7,192 bases of DNA from Escherichia coli (GTDB lineage: Bacteria; Pseudomonadota; Gammaproteobacteria; Enterobacterales; Enterobacteriaceae), in NCBI RefSeq assembly GCF_003334355.1, contig NZ_QOWP01000064.1, one strand, 5' to 3'. Made by a program: the position numbers and the translations under genes. How positions within the stretch are numbered: position 1 is the stretch's first letter; each line of letters begins with the position of its first letter. The notes under the pieces were generated by a model, which saw only the letters and a program-made list of their open reading frames with translations, was not told the origin of the DNA and ran no database searches. This document shows, one piece after another, positions 1-7,192 of the stretch.

Positions 1-972
1 ATCTTCTGCGACGAACATGGTCGCGTGCGGGTGAAGTTCAACTGGGACCGTTATAACCCGGCAGACCAAGACAGTTCATGCTGGATCCGTGTGGCACAGG
101 CGTGGGCAGGCACCGGCTTTGGCAACCTGGCGATACCGCGAGTGGGTCAGGAGGTGATTGTGGACTTCCTCAACGGCGACCCGGACCAGCCGATTATTAT
201 GGGGCGTACCTACCACCATGAAAACCGCACACCCGGCAGCCTGCCGGGGACGAAGACGCAGATGACGATCCGCTCGAAAACCTATAAGGGCAGCGGGTTT
301 AATGAACTGAAGTTTGACGATGCGACAGGGAAAGAACAGGTCTACATCCACGCGCAGAAGAACATGAACACCGAGGTGCTGAATAACCGCACCACTGATG
401 TGATAAACAACCATGCTGAAACCATTGGCAACAATCAGATGATTGCGGTTACCAACAATCAGATACAGACGGTGGGTGTTAACCAGATAGAGACGGTGGG
501 CAGTAACCAGATAATTAAAGTGGGTTCTGTTCAGGTGGAAACGATTGGACTTGTTCGTGCGCTGACCGTGGGCGTGGCGTACCAGACGACGGTAGGTGGC
601 ATTATGAACACTTCGGTGGCTCTGATGCAGTCCTCGCAGATCGGTTTGCATAAATCGTTGAGGGTCGGGCTGGGTTATGACGTCAAAGTCGGAAATAACG
701 TTACCTTCACCGTTGGTAAAACGAAAAAGGATGATACCGGGCAGACCGCGATTTACTCCGCCGGTGAGCATCTGGAGCTCTGCTGTGGTAAGGCAAGGCT
801 GGTGCTGACGAAGGACGGACAAATTTTTCTCAACGGCACAAAAATTCATTTGCAGGGTAAGGAGCAGGTTAATGGTGACTCACTGTTGATTAACTGGAAC
901 TGTGCAGCCTCGAAATCCCCACCGAAGACCCCTGATGAAAAGCAGGATACGCCGGATATGAGAGAGTACTGA
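1..972 (+). CDS. vgrG: VgrG (T6SS spike) C-terminal portion; 5' end lies outside the window
   Basis: Frame 1 is open from nt 1 (IFCDEHGRVRVKFNWDRYNPADQDSSCWIRVAQAWAGTGFG...) to TGA at 970-972. The FCDEHGRV.KF.WDR block followed by NQIxTVGx octapeptide repeats is the VgrG gp27/gp5-like region as I recall it. The ORF track start at 25 (GTG) is internal. Confidence 0.9.
   Translation: MFCDEHGRVRVKFNWDRYNPADQDSSCWIRVAQAWAGTGFGNLAIPRVGQEVIVDFLNGDPDQPIIMGRTYHHENRTPGSLPGTKTQMTIRSKTYKGSGFNELKFDDATGKEQVYIHAQKNMNTEVLNNRTTDVINNHAETIGNNQMIAVTNNQIQTVGVNQIETVGSNQIIKVGSVQVETIGLVRALTVGVAYQTTVGGIMNTSVALMQSSQIGLHKSLRVGLGYDVKVGNNVTFTVGKTKKDDTGQTAIYSAGEHLELCCGKARLVLTKDGQIFLNGTKIHLQGKEQVNGDSLLINWNCAASKSPPKTPDEKQDTPDMREY
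433..528 (+). repeat. Four tandem 24-nt units inside vgrG encoding octapeptide beta-helix repeats (NQMIAVTN / NQIQTVGV / NQIETVGS / NQIIKVGS)
   Basis: Direct repeats visible in the sequence: aatcagatgattgcggttaccaac, aatcagatacagacggtgggtgtt, aaccagatagagacggtgggcagt, aaccagataattaaagtgggttct. All are in the vgrG frame. Confidence 0.85.
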
Positions 973-1031
973 TCCCGTACCTGTTCGGTATTCAGTAACA
1001 AACAAGCATTAAAAATAAACAGAAGAAGGAA

Positions 1032-4000
1032 TTGAATCATGAGCGGAAAACCAGCGGCGCGTCAGGGAATATGACTCAGTATGGCGGTCCCATTGTCCAG
1101 GGTTCGGCAGGTGTAAGAATTGGCGCGCCCACCGGCGTGGCGTGCTCGGTGTGTCCGGGCGGGATGACTTCGGGCAACCCGGTAAATCCGCTGCTGGGGG
1201 CGAAGGTGCTGCCCGGCGAGACGGACCTTGCGCTGCCCGGCCCGCTGCCGTTCATTCTCTCCCGCACCTACAGCAGCTACCGGACCAGGACACCCGCGCC
1301 GGTGGGAGTGTTTGGCCCCGGCTGGAAAGCGCCTTCTGATATCCGCTTACAGCTACGCGATGATGCACTGGTACTCAACGACAACGGCGGGCGGAGCATT
1401 CACTTTGAGCCGCTGCTGCCGGGGGAGGCGGTGTACAGCCGCAGCGAGTCAATGTGGCTGGTGCGCGGTGGTAAGGCAGCGCAGCCGGACGGCCACACGC
1501 TGGCGCGGCTGTGGGGGGCGCTGCCGCCGGATATCCGGTTAAGCCCGCATCTTTACCTGGCGACCAACAGCGCACAGGGGCCGTGGTGGATACTGGGGTG
1601 GTCAGAGCGGGTGCCGGGTGCTGAGGACGTACTGCCAGCGCCGCTGCCGCCGTACCGGGTGCTTACCGGGCTGGCAGACCGTTTCGGGCGGACGCTGACG
1701 TACCGGCGTGAGGCCGCAGGCGACCTGGCCGGGGAAATCACCGGCGTGACGGACGGTGCCGGGCGGGAGTTCCGTCTGGTGCTGACCACGCAGGCGCAGC
1801 GTGCGGAAGAGGCCCGCACCTCTTCGCTATCTTCTTCTGACAGTTCCCGCCCTCTCTCAGCCTCAGCGTTCCCCGACACACTGCCCGGTACCGAATACGG
1901 CCCCGACAGGGGTATCCGCCTTTCGGCGGTGTGGCTGATGCACGACCCGGCATACCCGGAGAGCCTGCCCGCTGCGCCACTGGTGCGGTACACGTATACG
2001 GAAGCCGGTGAACTGCTGGCGGTATATGACCGCAGCAATACGCAGGTGCGCGCTTTCACGTATGACGCGCAGCACCCGGGCCGGATGGTGGCGCACCGTT
2101 ACGCGGGAAAGCCGGAGATGCGCTACCGCTACGACGATACGGGGCGGGTGGTGGAGCAACTGAACCCGGCAGGGTTAAGCTACCGCTATCTTTATGAGCA
2201 GGACCGCATCACCGTCACCGACAGCCTGAACCGGCGTGAGGTGCTGCATACAGAAGGCGGGGCCGGGCTGAAACGGGTGGTGAAAAAAGAACTGGCGGAC
2301 GGCAGCGTCACGCACAGCGGGTATGACGCGGCAGGAAGGCTCACGGCGCAGACGGACGCGGCGGGACGGAGGACAGAGTACGGTCTGAATGTGGTGTCCG
2401 GCGATATCACGGACATCACCACACCGGACGGGCGGGAGACGAAATTTTACTATAACGACGGGAACCAGCTGACGGCGGTGGTGTACCCGGACGGGCTGGA
2501 GAGCCGCCGGGAATATGATGAACCGGGCAGGCTGGTATCGGAGACATCGCGCAGCGGGGAGACAGTACGCTACCGCTACGATGACGCGCACAGTGAGTTA
2601 CCGGCGACGACAACGGATGCGACGGGCAGCACCCGGCAGATGACGTGGAGCCGCTACGGGCAGTTGCTGGCGTTCACTGACTGCTCGGGCTACCAGACCC
2701 GCTATGAATACGACCGCTTCGGCCAGATGACGGCGGTTCACCGCGAGGAAGGTATCAGCCTTTACCGCCACTATGACAACCGTGGCCGGTTAACCTCGGT
2801 GAAAGACGCACAGGGCCGTGAAACGCGGTATGAATACAACGCCGCAGGCGACCTGACTGCCGTCATTACCCCGGACGGCAACCGGAGCGAGACACAGTAC
2901 GATGCGTGGGGAAAGGCGGTCAGCACCACGCAGGGCGGGCTGACGCGCAGTATGGAGTACGATGCTGCCGGACGTGTCATCAGTCTGACTAACGAGAACG
3001 GCAGCCACAGCGACTTCAGCTACGATGCGCTGGACCGGCTGGTACAGCAGGGCGGCTTTGACGGGCGGACGCAACGTTATCATTATGACCTGACCGGAAA
3101 ACTCACGCAGAGTGAAGATGAGGGGCTTATCACCCTCTGGCACTACGATGCGTCGGACCGCATCACGCACCGGACGGTGAACGGCGACCCGGCAGAGCAG
3201 TGGCAGTATGATGAGCACGGGTGGTTAACCACCCTCAGCCATACCAGTGAAGGCCACCGCGTGTCGGTCCACTACGGCTATGACGATAAAGGCCGCCTGA
3301 CCGGCGAACGCCAGACGGTGGAGAACCCGGAGACGGGGGAACTGCTGTGGCACCATGAGACCGGACATGCGTACAACGAACAGGGGCTGGCAAACCGCGT
3401 CACGCCGGACAGTCTGCCGCCGGTGGAGTGGCTGACCTACGGCAGCGGCTATCTTGCGGGCATGAAGCTGGGCGGGACGCCGCTGCTGGAGTTCACGCGC
3501 GACCGCCTGCACCGTGAGACGGTGCGCAGCTTCGGCAGCATGGCAGGCAGTAATGCCGCATATAAACTGACCAGCACATACACCCCCGCAGGCCAGTTAC
3601 AGAGCCAGCACCTGAACAGCCTGGTGTATGACCGTGACTACGGGTGGAATGACAACGGCGACCTGGTGCGCATCAGCGGCCCGCGACAGACGCGGGAATA
3701 CGGCTACAGCGCCACGGGCAGGCTGGAGAGTGTGCGCACCCTCGCACCAGACCTGGACATCCGCATCCCGTATGCCACGGACCCGGCGGGCAACCGGCTG
3801 CCGGACCCGGAGCTGCACCCGGACAGTACACTCACAGTGTGGCCGGATAACCGCATCGCGGAGGATGCGCACTATGTCTACCGCCACGATGAATACGGCA
3901 GGCTGACGGAGAAGACGGACCGCATCCCGGCGGGTGTGATACGGACGGACGACGAGCGGACCCACCACTACCACTACGACAGCCAGCACCGCCTGGTGTT

Positions 4001-5261
4001 CTACACGCGGATACAGCATGGCGAGCCACTGGTCGAGAGCCGCTACCTCTACGACCCGCTGGGACGGCGAATGGCAAAACGGGTCTGGCGGCGGGAGCGT
4101 GACCTGACGGGGTGGATGTCGCTGTCGCGTAAACCGGAGGTGACGTGGTATGGCTGGGACGGCGACCGGCTGACGACGGTGCAGACTGACACCACACGTA
4201 TCCAGACGGTATACGAGCCGGGAAGCTTCACGCCGCTCATCCGGGTCGAGACAGAGAACGGCGAGCGGGAAAAAGCGCAGCGGCGCAGCCTGGCAGAGAC
4301 GCTCCAGCAGGAAGGGAGTGAGAACGGCCACGGCGTGGTGTTCCCGGCTGAACTGGTGCGGCTGCTGGACAGGCTGGAGGAAGAAATCCGGGCAGACCGC
4401 GTGAGCAGTGAAAGCCGGGCGTGGCTTGCGCAGTGCGGGCTGACGGTGGAGCAACTGGCCAGACAGGTGGAGCCGGAATACACACCGGCGCGAAAAGTTC
4501 ATTTTTACCACTGCGACCACCGGGGCCTGCCGCTGGCGCTCATCAGCGAAGACGGCAATACGGCGTGGCGCGGGGAGTATGATGAATGGGGCAACCAGCT
4601 TAATGAGGAGAACCCGCATCACCTGCACCAGCCGTACCGTCTGCCAGGGCAGCAGCATGATGAGGAGTCGGGGCTGTACTATAACCGTCACCGGCACTAC
4701 GATCCGTTGCAGGGGCGGTATATCACCCCGGACCCGATTGGGTTGAGAGGTGGATGGAATATGTATCAGTATCCGTTGAATCCCATACAAGTGATAGACC
4801 CAATGGGGTTAGATGCGATTGAGAATATGACATCAGGTGGACTAATTTATGCCGTATCTGGTGTACCTGGATTGATTGCTGCAAACAGCATTACTAACAG
4901 TGCTTACCAGTTCGGTTATGATATGGATGCTATTGTTGGCGGAGCTCATAATGGGGCCGCCGATGCAATGAGACATTGTTACTTGATGTGTCGAATGACT
5001 AAGACATTTGGATCAACAATAGCTGACGTGATAGGTAAAAATCATGAGGCGGCAGGGGATAGACAAGGTCAGCCAGCTAAAGAAAGAATCATGGATCTTA
5101 AAAATAACACTGTCGGTATTGCTTGTGGCGATTTTTCTGCCAAATGTAGCGATGCATGTATTGAAAAATATAACACTGGGCAACTCTTCGGGTTAGATGG
5201 TATAAAAGCAGATAATCCAATAAAAGCAAAGCAAGGGAGTTCAGATGCTTCAAATTATTAG
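1032..5261 (+). CDS. Rhs-family polymorphic toxin: PAAR-like N-terminal domain, YD-repeat shell, RHS core ending in DPxGL, variable C-terminal toxin
   Basis: 1409-codon ORF ending at TAG 5259-5261. Many YD-type repeats ([86 protein letters not shown]). Core terminus is [32 protein letters not shown]. The start is ambiguous: in-frame candidates are TTG 1032 and ATG 1071, while the ATG with the best Shine-Dalgarno (1039) is in another frame. Confidence 0.9.
1039..1074 (+). other. Short [14 protein letters not shown]-stop carrying the PAAR motif, out of frame with the rhs body
   Basis: ATG 1039 preceded by GAAGGA (1025-1030) with an 8-nt spacer. It translates atg agc gga aaa cca gcg gcg cgt cag gga ata tga. 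Confidence 0.6.
4731..4811 (+). other. RHS core C-terminal boundary with two DPxGL motifs (DPIGL 4731-4745, DPMGL 4797-4811)
   Basis: Both motifs read directly in the rhs frame. The sequence turns from GC-rich to AT-rich across this segment. Confidence 0.8.
4812..5258 (+). other. Rhs variable C-terminal toxin domain, about 149 aa, family not recognised
   Basis: Sequence downstream of DPMGL: [151 protein letters not shown]-rich, with five Cys and several His. Confidence 0.7.
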
Positions 5262-5727
5262 AGGCAAACTTGTCATTTTTTTAATTACCCTTTGTTTATT
5301 TGTTGTTTACCTTGGGTTTGATAACAATTCAAATTCTGACATCGTATTTTATGGACATAAAACACCAAAGAGCGTTGAGATATATCTTTCTGAAAAAAAT
5401 ATTATTTATAAAATAATTAATGACCAAAAAATTAGTAGAGGGAATGGTCATTTTATAAGTGTAATGGTTAATAATTACAGGACGCACTGTGGAGTGGTTG
5501 ATATAAATCTTAATTTTTTCAATGATATTCTTTATAGCGTGCGATTAAAAAACATTAGTAAACTGGAGAATATGGAGTTCTGCGCTACAAAACAACGGGT
5601 GTATTTTAGTGATAAAAACAAGAAGGCTAGTTATAAAATAATTAATTATGGAGACTATTATGATGTTGATTATTATGATAACAATTTGAAAAATGAAGTT
5701 TTTGACTGGATTGGTAAATGGTCATAA
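5245..5727 (+). CDS. Putative cognate Rhs immunity protein (160 aa) with N-terminal hydrophobic signal/anchor segment
   Basis: ATG 5245 preceded by AGGGAG (5234-5239) with a 5-nt spacer. It overlaps the rhs stop by 17 nt and ends at TAA 5725-5727. Positively charged start (RGK) then hydrophobic [17 protein letters not shown]. Same AT-rich composition as the toxin domain and the usual position for an Rhs immunity gene. Confidence 0.7.
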
Positions 5728-5804
5728 TGAACAACACCAGAAAGAGAAAAATATAAAATACATACAGAAAGACATGAGAGCAAGGGACGGGGCAGGGCAA
5801 GATC

Positions 5805-5836
5805 ATGAAAATTGTGATGTAAATCACGATTTTCAT
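5805..5836. repeat. Imperfect inverted repeat: 14-nt arms (13 of 14 complementary; the odd position is a G-U wobble in RNA) around a 4-nt loop; possible weak terminator or protein-binding site
   Basis: atgaaaattgtgat-gtaa-atcacgattttcat, followed by ctttgcttt. It lies 78 nt downstream of the immunity stop. Confidence 0.5.
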
Positions 5837-5908
5837 CTTTGCTTTAACGCCTACAGGTGATCAAAATTTAACCTTTGGAATAACTAAAAAGATAAAAAAG
5901 GACGCCAG

Positions 5909-7031
5909 GTGAGTATTCAAAGTTTGCTTGATTATATTTCAGTGACCCCTGATATACGACAACAAGGAAAGGTTAAACATAAATTATCTGCTATTTTGTT
6001 TCTCACCGTATGTGCAGTAATTGCAGGTGCCGATGAGTGGCAGGAAATTGAAGATTTTGGACATGAAAGACTTGAATGGCTAAAGAAATATGGTGATTTT
6101 GATAATGGCATTCCGGTCGATGACACCATTGCACGCGTTGTGAGTAACATTGACAGTTTGGCCTTTGAAAAGATGTTTATTGAATGGATGCAGGAGTGCC
6201 ATGAAATCACTGATGGTGAAATTATAGCAATAGATGGAAAGACCATAAGAGGCTCCTTTGATAAGGGAAAAAGAAAAGGAGCAATCCATATGGTGAGTGC
6301 ATTCTCGAACGAAAATGGTGTTGTACTGGGGCAGGTGAAAACGGAAGCCAAAAGTAATGAGATTACAGCCATTCCAGAGTTGCTTAACCTACTGTATTTA
6401 AAGAAAAATTTGATAACCATTGATGCTATGGGCTGTCAGAAAGATATCGCTTCGAAGATCAAAGATAAAAAAGCAGATTATCTTCTGGCAGTAAAAGGCA
6501 ATCAGGGGAAATTACATCATGCATTCGAGGAAAAATTTCCTGTAAATGTGTTTTCTAATTATAAAGGCGATTCGTTTAGTACGCAGGAGATAAGTCATGG
6601 AAGAAAAGAAACACGTTTGCATATTGTCAGTAACGTAACGCCTGAACTTTTGTGATTTTGAATTCGAATGGAAGGGATTAAAAAAGCTTTGTGTAGCATT
6701 GTCATTCAGGCAGAAGAAAGAAGATAAATCAGCAGAAGGTGTAAGCATCCGATATTATATTTCATCAAAGGATATGGATGCTAAAGAATTTGCACATGCT
6801 ATCAGAGCGCACTGGCTGATCGAGCACAGTCTTCATTGGGTGTTAGATGTAAAAATGAATGAAGATGCCAGCCGGATAAGAAGAGGAAACGCAGCCTAAA
6901 TAATATCTGGAATAAAGAAGATGGCACTGAATTTATTAAGAGATTGCAAAGACATTAAGGGTGAAGAGGAAAAGAAAGAAGGCTGCGTTAAACACAGGGA
7001 AAGATCATCAGAAGTTCACTTTTTGTACTAA
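5909..7031 (+). pseudogene. ISAs1-family (H-repeat associated) transposase, disrupted by a frameshift near 6650-6653 and an in-frame TAA at 6897-6899
   Basis: Segment 5909..6655 carries the family hallmarks as I recall them (EITAIPELL, DAMGCQKDIA, AVKGNQG). The protein continues in another frame from about 6654 ([18 protein letters not shown]...[29 protein letters not shown]) to TAA 6897-6899. The same frame then stays open for 43 more codons (IISGIKKMALNLL...) to TAA 7029-7031. The three segments sum to about 371 codons, close to the family length as I recall it. Confidence 0.8.
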
Positions 7032-7126
7032 ATAATTCGCATTTTATGTTTAAAAATTGAGATATTCCTCATTACCTGAAGCTGTTTTTTATTGCTTATA
7101 CATGATCAAATACTCCTTACATAATT

Positions 7127-7138: not shown

Positions 7139-7192
7139 ATGGAACTTAAAAAATTGATGGAACATATTTCTATTATCCCCGATTACAGACAA
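7139..7192 (+). CDS. 5' end of a second ISAs1-family (H-repeat) transposase; continues beyond the window
   Basis: MELKKLMEHISIIPDYRQ matches the N-terminus of E. coli H-repeat proteins (YhhI-like) as I recall it, and a strong SD lies upstream. It shares only 8 of 18 residues with the N-terminus of the upstream pseudogene (MSIQSLLDYISVTPDIRQ). Confidence 0.75.
   Translation, partial: MELKKLMEHISIIPDYRQ

What the first reader, a model, noticed from the sequence alone, without database searches (positions are those of the whole stretch)
5245..5727. Membrane-anchored putative immunity protein translationally coupled to the toxin
The ORF starts 17 nt before the rhs stop and has its own AGGGAG Shine-Dalgarno inside the toxin coding sequence, the usual arrangement for Rhs toxin/immunity pairs. 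Its N-terminus ([25 protein letters not shown]) looks like a signal anchor or uncleaved signal peptide rather than a lipobox: ITLC does not fit [LVI][ASTVI][GAS]C. A membrane-tethered immunity protein implies that the toxin is neutralised at the membrane or in the periplasm, which would narrow the likely toxin target to the envelope. The protein is Tyr/Asn/Asp-rich and I recognise no homolog.
Basis: partly seen in the sequence, partly recalled or inferred. Interest (0 to 1): 0.6.

Follow-up and report, generated by a model that had tools for sequence, protein, structure and literature searches.

The report
E. coli YdcD, RhsE toxin immunity protein
The ORF is the known but functionally untested E. 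coli gene ydcD, most likely a membrane-anchored, periplasm-facing immunity protein for the RhsE toxin tip, whose closest studied relative is a Bacteroides effector that acts in the periplasm on OmpA.

Summary
A 160-codon ORF lies at 5245..5727 and overlaps the rhs stop by 17 nt. AGGGAG sits 5 nt upstream of its ATG. A 17-residue hydrophobic N-terminal segment follows, with no lipobox.

This is E. coli ydcD, 159/160 identical to K-12. It has its own NCBIfam family and a solved structure (PDB 8wj5, residues 26-160, "double-wing domain"). It is present in 2472 of 5426 complete E. coli genomes.

- YdcD-like genes at 24-59% identity lie directly downstream of the same toxin domain (Pfam DUF6973) in 5 of 8 contexts examined.
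- They keep the N-terminal hydrophobic segment and two invariant Cys.
- K-12 keeps ydcD beside a truncated rhsE.

The RhsE tip and the B. fragilis effector BteO are both DUF6973 members. BteO is toxic only in the periplasm and binds OmpA C-domains. Its six essential residues align with invariant residues of the RhsE tip. YdcD does not resemble BteO's OmpA-mimicking immunity protein BtiO.

Verdict: an ordinary Rhs toxin/immunity pair in a known gene. What is new is a testable lead on the toxin's target.

The parts
5245..5727 (+). ydcD coding sequence (160 aa plus stop)
   Evidence: ORF list. NCBIfam YdcD_fam scores 215 bits against a cut-off of 65. It differs from K-12 YdcD only at V73I. PDB 8wj5 covers residues 26-160.
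5234..5239 (+). Shine-Dalgarno AGGGAG inside the rhs coding sequence, 5 nt before the ydcD ATG
   Evidence: duplex with the anti-SD is -7.9 kcal/mol.
5245..5261 (+). 17-nt overlap of the ydcD start with the rhs 3' end (TAG at 5259-5261)
   Evidence: The same 17-nt overlap occurs in the diverged pair of L002.
5269..5319 (+). Hydrophobic segment, residues 9-25 ([17 protein letters not shown]): predicted signal anchor, N-terminus in the cytoplasm
   Evidence: KD17 = 2.89. AF2 models a helix over residues 2-26. R6 and K8 lie before the segment and D26 and D32 after it. A hydrophobic segment is kept in most full-length homologs.
5320..5724 (+). Soluble 'double-wing' domain, residues 26-160 (alpha, four beta, alpha, two beta, alpha), predicted periplasmic
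5488..5490 (+). Cys82, invariant in 12 of 12 family members
   Evidence: Alignment A3. Pairing with Cys113 in a disulfide is inferred, not shown.
5581..5583 (+). Cys113, invariant in 12 of 12 family members
   Evidence: Alignment A3.
4812..5261 (+). RhsE C-terminal toxin tip (149 aa plus stop), released after the DPxGL motif
   Evidence: Pfam DUF6973, E = 5.3e-12. Identical to the K-12 rhsE tip. G+C is 0.41 against 0.64 in the core.
4884..5138 (+). DUF6973 core of the toxin (tip residues 25-109), homologous to the alpha3-alpha6 groove of BteO
   Evidence: The tip profile hits PDB 9uu0 (MBP-BteO) at E = 8.7e-6. R54/H55 (4971-4976), H78/E79 (5043-5048), E91 (5082-5084) and D95 (5094-5096) align with BteO residues R143/H144, H167/E168, D187 and D191, all essential for its toxicity.
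4797..4811 (+). DPMGL, the Rhs core/tip boundary motif
   Evidence: Sequence reading. The role of DPxGL as the autoproteolysis site of Rhs proteins is taken from established knowledge.
4836..4883 (+). Gly-rich hydrophobic stretch at the start of the toxin tip ([16 protein letters not shown])
   Evidence: KD15 = 1.7. AF2 confidence is low here. BteO also carries an N-terminal transmembrane helix before its DUF6973 domain. The function of this stretch is not tested.
1032..5261 (+). Rhs core protein ORF (RhsE type)
   Evidence: Annotated 'RHS element core protein' in near-identical genomes.
25..972 (+). 3' part of a T6SS vgrG gene upstream of rhs
   Evidence: Annotated 'type VI secretion system Vgr family protein / tip protein VgrG' in matching genomes.

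Best explanation
The ORF is E. coli ydcD, and it most likely encodes the cognate immunity protein of the RhsE toxin tip.

Proposed mechanism, with each step marked:
- ydcD is translated from its own Shine-Dalgarno, which lies inside the last codons of rhs. (Anatomy shown; coupling inferred.)
- Its N-terminal 17-residue hydrophobic segment inserts in the inner membrane as an uncleaved signal anchor, N-terminus in the cytoplasm. (Inferred.)
- The double-wing domain (residues 26-160) faces the periplasm, probably with a Cys82-Cys113 disulfide. (Inferred.)
- There it binds incoming RhsE tips delivered by the VgrG-linked T6SS of sister cells. (Inferred.)
- The tip is a DUF6973 domain. (Shown.)
- By homology with B. 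fragilis BteO, it acts in the periplasm, perhaps by binding peptidoglycan-anchoring OmpA-C-like domains through the conserved RH/HE/E/D groove. (Inferred; the OmpA step is the weakest, about 0.3-0.35.)
- YdcD neutralises it with a fold unrelated to BteO's OmpA-mimicking immunity protein BtiO. (Fold difference shown; neutralisation inferred.)
For: Identity:
- NCBIfam YdcD_fam, E = 5e-64.
- One substitution relative to K-12.
- PDB 8wj5.

Pairing with the toxin:
- A DUF6973 tip lies directly upstream of YdcD-like genes in the window and in L002, L007, L008, L009 and L010/L011.
- Toxin and immunity diverge together. Toxin identities are 82, 54, 43 and 50%. The partner YdcD identities are 59, 28, 26 and 27%.
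- ydcD is kept where the toxin gene is broken or absent. In K-12, rhsE lacks its N-terminus. ydcD is in 2472 genomes, but only 1324 carry at least 80% of the whole window. Orphan copies occur in L004, L005 and L006.

Topology:
- The hydrophobic segment is strong (KD 2.36-2.89) and is kept in most full-length homologs.
- No homolog has a lipobox.
- Positive charges lie on the N-terminal side of the segment.
- Cys82 and Cys113 are invariant.

Toxin compartment:
- The RhsE tip and a BteO fragment match the same span (positions 17-100) of Pfam DUF6973, at E = 5e-12 and 3e-14.
- The tip profile hits BteO in the PDB at E = 8.7e-6.
- All six BteO residues needed for toxicity and OmpA binding align with invariant tip residues.
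- BteO is toxic only when sent to the periplasm. Its periplasm-directed domain changes the muropeptide profile in E. coli, and overexpressing the domain there inhibits growth.
- The tip has five invariant Cys, including a twin CX3C pattern. This fits folding in an oxidising compartment.
Against: - No experiment on YdcD or the RhsE tip was found in the searchable literature.
- Three of eight distant homologs have no adjacent toxin.
- The similarity to BteO covers only about 85 residues, and a single sequence reaches only E = 0.16.
- The AF2 model of the tip is poor (pLDDT 63) and gave no fold match, not even to BteO.
- No topology predictor or signal-peptide predictor could be run. A Ser29-Asn-Ser31 cleavage site cannot be excluded.
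- YdcD has no OmpA-C-like fold, so the BtiO mimicry model does not transfer.
Confidence: 0.75

Rival explanations
1. YdcD is exported and its N-terminal segment is cleaved by signal peptidase I, for example after Ser29-Asn-Ser31. This would give a soluble periplasmic immunity protein rather than a membrane-tethered one.
For: The hydrophobic core is 17 residues, between typical signal-peptide and anchor lengths. It is followed by a polar 6-residue stretch with small residues at -3 and -1, SNS|D. BtiO, the immunity protein of the related toxin BteO, has a cleavable signal peptide. The crystallised construct starts at residue 26.
Against: The candidate site is not conserved even in the 59%-identical homolog (KSKPS). 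It is absent in P0078 and P0085. AF2 models one continuous helix over residues 2-26. No predictor was run.
Confidence: 0.15
2. The toxin acts on or in the inner membrane, for instance by inserting its Gly-rich hydrophobic N-terminal stretch. YdcD would then neutralise it within the bilayer through its own transmembrane helix, as immunity proteins of pore-forming effectors do.
For: The tip starts with a hydrophobic Gly-rich stretch, KD15 = 1.7. The immunity protein has a conserved transmembrane segment.
Against: The conserved and invariant residues of the tip lie in the soluble DUF6973 groove, which is the functional surface in BteO. The transmembrane sequence of YdcD is the least conserved part of the family, whereas the soluble domain carries the invariant residues.
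Confidence: 0.07
3. YdcD is not the immunity protein. It could be a double-wing nucleic-acid-binding or accessory protein. Immunity would then be provided by another small ORF such as the antisense 61-aa YncO. An in-silico survey of EHEC proposed a 61-aa 'lipoprotein' ORF as the RhsE immunity protein.
Against: A transmembrane anchor and an invariant Cys pair fit poorly with a cytoplasmic DNA binder. YdcD-like genes track DUF6973 tips at 24-30% identity. In L002 a different gene (DUF4329) directly follows the ydcD homolog where yncO would lie. I did not verify that the EHEC ORF is YncO.
Confidence: 0.03

Closest known systems
E. coli K-12 YdcD (NCBIfam NF050020; PDB 8wj5 'Double-wing domain of E. 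coli YdcD')
   Same: The same gene: 159/160 residues identical, at the same locus downstream of rhsE and upstream of yncO and the ISAs1 H-repeat.
   Different: In K-12 the rhsE gene is an N-terminally truncated pseudogene. In the window, rhs is essentially full length and follows vgrG. No functional study of YdcD was found.
BteO-BtiO effector-immunity pair of the Bacteroides fragilis GA3 T6SS (PMC12541434; PDB 9uu0)
   Same: The toxin domains are homologous, both Pfam DUF6973 with all six essential BteO residues conserved. Both have a hydrophobic segment before the domain. Both immunity proteins carry an N-terminal export or anchor signal.
   Different: BteO is a stand-alone effector, whereas this domain is the tip of an Rhs protein. 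The RhsE tip is shorter and has five invariant Cys that BteO lacks in the aligned region. BtiO has an OmpA-C-like fold and a cleavable signal peptide. YdcD has a double-wing fold and shows no sequence or fold similarity to OmpA-C-like proteins in the searches run. OmpA binding by RhsE is untested.
Rhs toxin/immunity pairs in general (for example the S. marcescens Rhs1-CT/RhsI1 complex, PDB 6xtd)
T4 MotA C-terminal 'double wing' domain
   Different: MotA is a cytoplasmic DNA-binding transcription factor. YdcD has a membrane anchor and an invariant Cys pair. Identity is 14%.

Membership tests
YdcD family (NCBIfam NF050020) | Whole-protein HMM score above the curated cut-off | tested here: met
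   215.1 bits against a cut-off of 65, covering residues 3-160.
YdcD family (NCBIfam NF050020) | Fold of the solved YdcD domain | tested here: met
Polymorphic-toxin (Rhs) immunity protein | Encoded immediately downstream of the toxin tip on the same strand | tested here: met
   17-nt overlap with its own SD.
Polymorphic-toxin (Rhs) immunity protein | Linkage to the same toxin domain is kept across diverged loci | tested here: met
   A DUF6973 tip lies directly upstream in 5 of 8 homolog contexts, at 24-59% immunity identity.
Polymorphic-toxin (Rhs) immunity protein | Protects against and binds the cognate toxin | not testable with these tools
   Needs co-expression, competition and binding assays. 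No publication was found.
DUF6973 / BteO-like effector domain (the partner toxin) | Match to Pfam PF22322 | tested here: met
   E = 5.3e-12 over model positions 17-100. A BteO fragment matches the same span at E = 3.3e-14.
DUF6973 / BteO-like effector domain (the partner toxin) | Conservation of the BteO residues required for toxicity (R143, H144, H167, E168, D187, D191) | tested here: met
   They align with R54, H55, H78, E79, E91 and D95, all invariant in five diverged tips.
DUF6973 / BteO-like effector domain (the partner toxin) | Toxic in the periplasm only; binds OmpA-C-like domains | not testable with these tools
   Shown for BteO only.
BtiO-like (OmpA-C-mimicking) immunity protein | OmpA-C-like fold or sequence similarity to BtiO | tested here: not met
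Bacterial lipoprotein | Lipobox [LVI][ASTVI][GAS]C after a signal sequence | tested here: not met
   ITLC has Leu at -1. Cys17 is replaced in homologs. No lipobox occurs in any of the 12 family members.
Bitopic inner-membrane protein with signal anchor (N-in, C-out) | One hydrophobic helix of transmembrane length, positive charges on the N-terminal side, no conserved cleavage site | tested here: inconclusive
   KD19 = 2.36. There are 17 uncharged residues, with R6 and K8 before them and D26 and D32 after. AF2 models a helix over 2-26, and no conserved small-x-small site exists. No dedicated predictor or experiment was available.

The most novel reading that the evidence does not exclude
RhsE-CT/YdcD is the enterobacterial counterpart of Bacteroides BteO/BtiO. 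On this reading, DUF6973 would be a cross-phylum class of T6SS toxins that disable peptidoglycan-anchoring OmpA-C-like proteins (OmpA, Pal and relatives) in the periplasm. E. coli would neutralise it with an unrelated, membrane-tethered double-wing domain that plugs the conserved RH/HE/E/D groove instead of mimicking OmpA. A variant of this reading is that the invariant His/His/Glu/Asp/Cys constellation is a catalytic site. In that case the 'non-enzymatic' model of the family would be incomplete.
Probability: 0.3. Interest if true: 0.55.

Novelty: new member of a known kind. Interest (0 to 1): 0.33.

Why it matters
ydcD is a K-12 gene still labelled 'uncharacterized', although its structure is solved. 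The RhsE tip has no assigned activity.

Linking the pair to the only studied DUF6973 toxin (BteO) gives concrete, cheap experiments on compartment, target and key residues.

It would also explain why nearly half of complete E. coli genomes keep ydcD, many of them, such as K-12, beside a truncated rhsE: the gene would be retained immunity against kin that still fire RhsE.

It does not change how Rhs systems are understood.

Tried and rejected
- Pfam on YdcD gave no significant domain. PADLOC gave nothing for YdcD or the tip.
- Lipoprotein reading: rejected, no lipobox and the Cys is not conserved.
- OmpA-mimic (BtiO-like) reading of YdcD: rejected on sequence and fold.
- The AF2 model of the toxin tip was too poor (pLDDT 63) for a meaningful fold search. 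No match appeared, not even to BteO.
- Influenza HA2 hits of the tip in the PDB search come from a shared Cys pattern and are treated as spurious.
- Word-indexed homolog searches returned almost only E. coli fragments and frameshifted calls. The exhaustive profile search was needed to find 24-32% relatives.
- The genome-contig scan first failed for lack of a conserved stretch. With a subset it returned only Budvicia diplopodorum and four 99%-identical short contigs in unrelated MAGs, which are probably contamination.
- The promoter scan of 4600-6000 found no more sigma-70-like sites than shuffles did (7 against 6.0 +/- 2.7), so there is no evidence for an internal ydcD promoter.
- Literature searches for DUF6973, 8WJ5, YdcD with Rhs or immunity, and double-wing gave no functional study. 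One search failed on a queue time-out.
- I did not verify whether the 61-aa ORF proposed as RhsE immunity in EHEC (PMC7216683) is YncO.

Full report
**1. Observation**

The window holds a 160-codon ORF at 5245..5727 on the + strand. The long rhs ORF (1032..5261) ends with TAG at 5259-5261, so the two overlap by 17 nt. AGGGAG lies at 5234-5239, 5 nt before the ATG, and pairs with the 16S 3' end at -7.9 kcal/mol.

The product starts [32 protein letters not shown]. The best 19-residue Kyte-Doolittle window scores 2.36, and the 17-residue core scores 2.89. ITLC is not a lipobox because Leu sits at -1.

The ORF is not accidental. The region has 27.5% G+C, which gives P(160 open codons) = 1.4e-7. 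The longest open run in 2000 shuffles was 108 codons.

The composition is Asn/Ile/Lys/Tyr-rich, which is what AT-rich codons give. Asp (6.9%) is unremarkable.

**2. Identity**

- A 701-bp query across the ORF matches 2472 of 5426 complete E. coli genomes at 99% identity or more. There it is annotated ydcD / 'YdcD family protein'.
- It scores 215 bits on NCBIfam NF050020, whose cut-off is 65.
- It differs from K-12 YdcD by V73I only. The rhs tip is identical to that of K-12.
- The PDB holds 8wj5, 'Double-wing domain of E. coli YdcD', covering residues 26-160. No paper describing it was found.

In K-12 the upstream rhsE is an N-terminally truncated pseudogene, yet ydcD is intact. The whole window is a vgrG 3' end, rhs, ydcD, yncO and ISAs1 copies. 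At least 80% of it is present in 1324 genomes. Many strains, K-12 among them, therefore keep ydcD without a complete toxin gene.

**3. The family and its N-terminus**

Word-indexed searches gave almost only E. coli copies and broken calls, plus one genuine 59%-identical homolog, P0029. An exhaustive profile search of 1.84 billion representatives found about ten relatives at 24-32% identity. The family is rare.

Invariant positions in the 12-sequence alignment include F70, C82, G83, F91, F92, C113, W155 and S160. The family shares a W-x-x-(K/R/E)-(W/F)-S C-terminus, W-I-G-K-W-S in the window.

Most full-length members start with a strongly hydrophobic segment. None has a lipobox, Cys17 is not conserved, and no small-x-small cleavage site is conserved.

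In the window protein, R6 and K8 precede the segment and D26 and D32 follow it. This favours N-in/C-out by the positive-inside rule (inference).

Two invariant Cys in an otherwise 25-30%-identical soluble domain suggest a disulfide, and so an oxidising compartment (inference).

**4. Structure**

AlphaFold2 with the 12-sequence alignment gives mean pLDDT 87. It shows helix 2-26, a low-confidence linker, and then an alpha, four-beta, alpha, two-beta, alpha domain.

**5. Linkage to the toxin**

The rhs tip after DPMGL (4812..5258) matches Pfam DUF6973 at E = 5.3e-12. Eight homolog contexts were examined.

| YdcD homolog (locus) | Upstream gene | Junction |
|---|---|---|
| P0029 (L002) | DUF6973 tip | 17-nt overlap |
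| P0085 (L008) | DUF6973 tip | 8-nt overlap, inside an orphan Rhs array |
| P0082 (L009) | DUF6973 tip | 28-nt gap |
| P0083 (L007) | DUF6973 tip | 1-nt overlap |
| P0091 (L010/L011) | tail '...CIDAYNNGKL...' of a DUF6973 tip | not resolved |
| Three others (L004, L005, L006) | none | orphans |

One of the orphans lies in the core genome of Budvicia diplopodorum.

Toxin and immunity diverge together, with the immunity protein diverging faster. Toxin identities are 82, 54, 43 and 50%. The matching YdcD identities are 59, 28, 26 and 27%. This is the expected signature of a cognate toxin/immunity pair.

**6. What the toxin is like**

Searching the tip against PDB sequences gave a weak hit (E = 0.16) to 9uu0, an MBP fusion of the B. 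fragilis T6SS effector BteO. A profile of five diverged tips raised this to E = 8.7e-6. The aligned BteO fragment itself matches DUF6973 at E = 3.3e-14, over the same model span as the tip. Both proteins are therefore DUF6973 members.

The BteO paper (PMC12541434) reports the following:
- BteO has an N-terminal transmembrane helix and is toxic only when directed to the periplasm.
- In E. coli, overexpressing its domain inhibits growth, and the periplasm-directed domain alters the muropeptide profile.
- It shows no peptidoglycan hydrolase or amidase activity.
- It binds OmpA C-terminal domains.
- It is neutralised by BtiO, a signal-peptide-bearing OmpA-C mimic.
- R143, H144, H167, E168, D187 and D191 in its alpha3-alpha6 groove are required for toxicity.

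By the HMMER alignment, those residues correspond to R54, H55, H78, E79, E91 and D95 of the RhsE tip. All six are invariant in the five tips.

The tip also has five invariant Cys (56, 60, 105, 112, 116; a twin CX3C pattern) and a Gly-rich hydrophobic stretch at its start. The BteO paper mentions neither Rhs nor DUF6973.

My AF2 model of the tip was poor (pLDDT 63) and gave no fold match. The link to BteO therefore rests on sequence profiles only.

**7. Mechanism**

The best-supported reading is that YdcD is the RhsE immunity protein. It would be anchored in the inner membrane by an uncleaved signal anchor, with its double-wing domain in the periplasm. There it would bind the DUF6973 tip injected by sister cells.

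- Shown: gene identity, anatomy, family conservation, toxin-domain membership, and conserved linkage.
- Inferred: topology, disulfide, binding, and periplasmic action.

The idea that the tip targets OmpA/Pal-type peptidoglycan-binding domains is borrowed from BteO and is the weakest step. I put it at about 0.3-0.35.

YdcD is not a BtiO-type OmpA mimic. If the target is the same, the means of neutralisation arose independently.

Rivals considered:
- a cleaved signal peptide giving a soluble periplasmic protein (0.15);
- neutralisation within the membrane of a membrane-inserting toxin (0.07);
- YdcD not being the immunity protein at all (0.03).

**8. Comparison and novelty**

This is a standard Rhs toxin/immunity arrangement in a well-annotated K-12 gene with a solved structure. 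The finding is not new as an object.

What I did not find in the searchable literature is:
- any functional assignment of YdcD;
- the homology between the RhsE tip and BteO.

An in-silico EHEC survey proposed a different 61-aa ORF as the RhsE immunity protein and an S-layer-adhesin role for the tip. The data here do not support that.

I rate it a new member of a known kind, with modest interest.

Noticed in passing
window 1023..1075: The canonical rhs start (ATG 1039, SD AGAAGGAA 1023-1030, [17 protein letters not shown]...) is frameshifted by a 1-nt deletion near 1069, relative to strain PSS-12. The window reads [11 protein letters not shown]-stop. The long ORF is open only from TTG 1032 or ATG 1071. 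This is either a real 5' defect of this rhsE allele or a sequencing error.
   Followed up: partly
window 5642..5827 (-): The annotated 61-aa hydrophobic small protein YncO is encoded antisense and overlaps the last 86 nt of ydcD. ydcD-yncO is listed among convergent overlapping transcript pairs ('excludons') in PMC12288877. It has the same length as the ORF proposed as RhsE immunity in EHEC (PMC7216683); their identity was not checked.
   Followed up: partly
window 5805..5836 (+): A 14-bp AT-rich hairpin followed by a T-rich tail lies about 80 nt after the ydcD stop. It was the only terminator-like site in 4600-6000. It overlaps the 5' end of yncO on the other strand.
   Followed up: no
window 5909..7035 and 7139..7192 (+): Two consecutive ISAs1-family (H-repeat) transposase genes. 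The first is a pseudogene with an internal stop and a frameshift. The second (ydcC) starts at 7139 and runs off the window.
   Followed up: partly
window 1032..5727: G+C drops stepwise: 0.64 in the Rhs core, 0.41 in the toxin tip and 0.275 in ydcD. This is typical of the core/tip/immunity mosaic of Rhs elements.
   Followed up: yes
window 4836..4883 (+): The toxin tip begins with a Gly-rich hydrophobic stretch ([16 protein letters not shown]), conserved in L002 and L009. This parallels the N-terminal transmembrane helix of BteO. Its role is unknown.
   Followed up: partly
window 4977..4991 and 5124..5159 (+): Five Cys are invariant in diverged DUF6973 Rhs tips (C56, C60, C105, C112, C116; twin CX3C). 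BteO lacks them in the aligned region. They also cause spurious PDB hits to influenza HA2.
   Followed up: partly
L013-L016: Short contigs (2.6-3.5 kb) carrying 99%-identical E. coli ydcD are filed in MAGs named Sporosarcina, Flavobacterium, Planococcaceae and Bacillota. These are most likely E. coli contamination of the bins.
   Followed up: no
L006 6001..6498 (= L017): Budvicia diplopodorum carries an orphan YdcD-like gene (25% identity in the family alignment, 30% over the tblastn segment). It sits in a core-genome slot between truD and an eptA-like gene, with no toxin nearby.
   Followed up: partly
L005 136..2462: A YdcD-like gene sits in a run of small ORFs with no Pfam hits. The upstream neighbour (136..639) is Cys-rich with an N-terminal hydrophobic segment. 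This may be an island of orphan periplasmic immunity genes.
   Followed up: no
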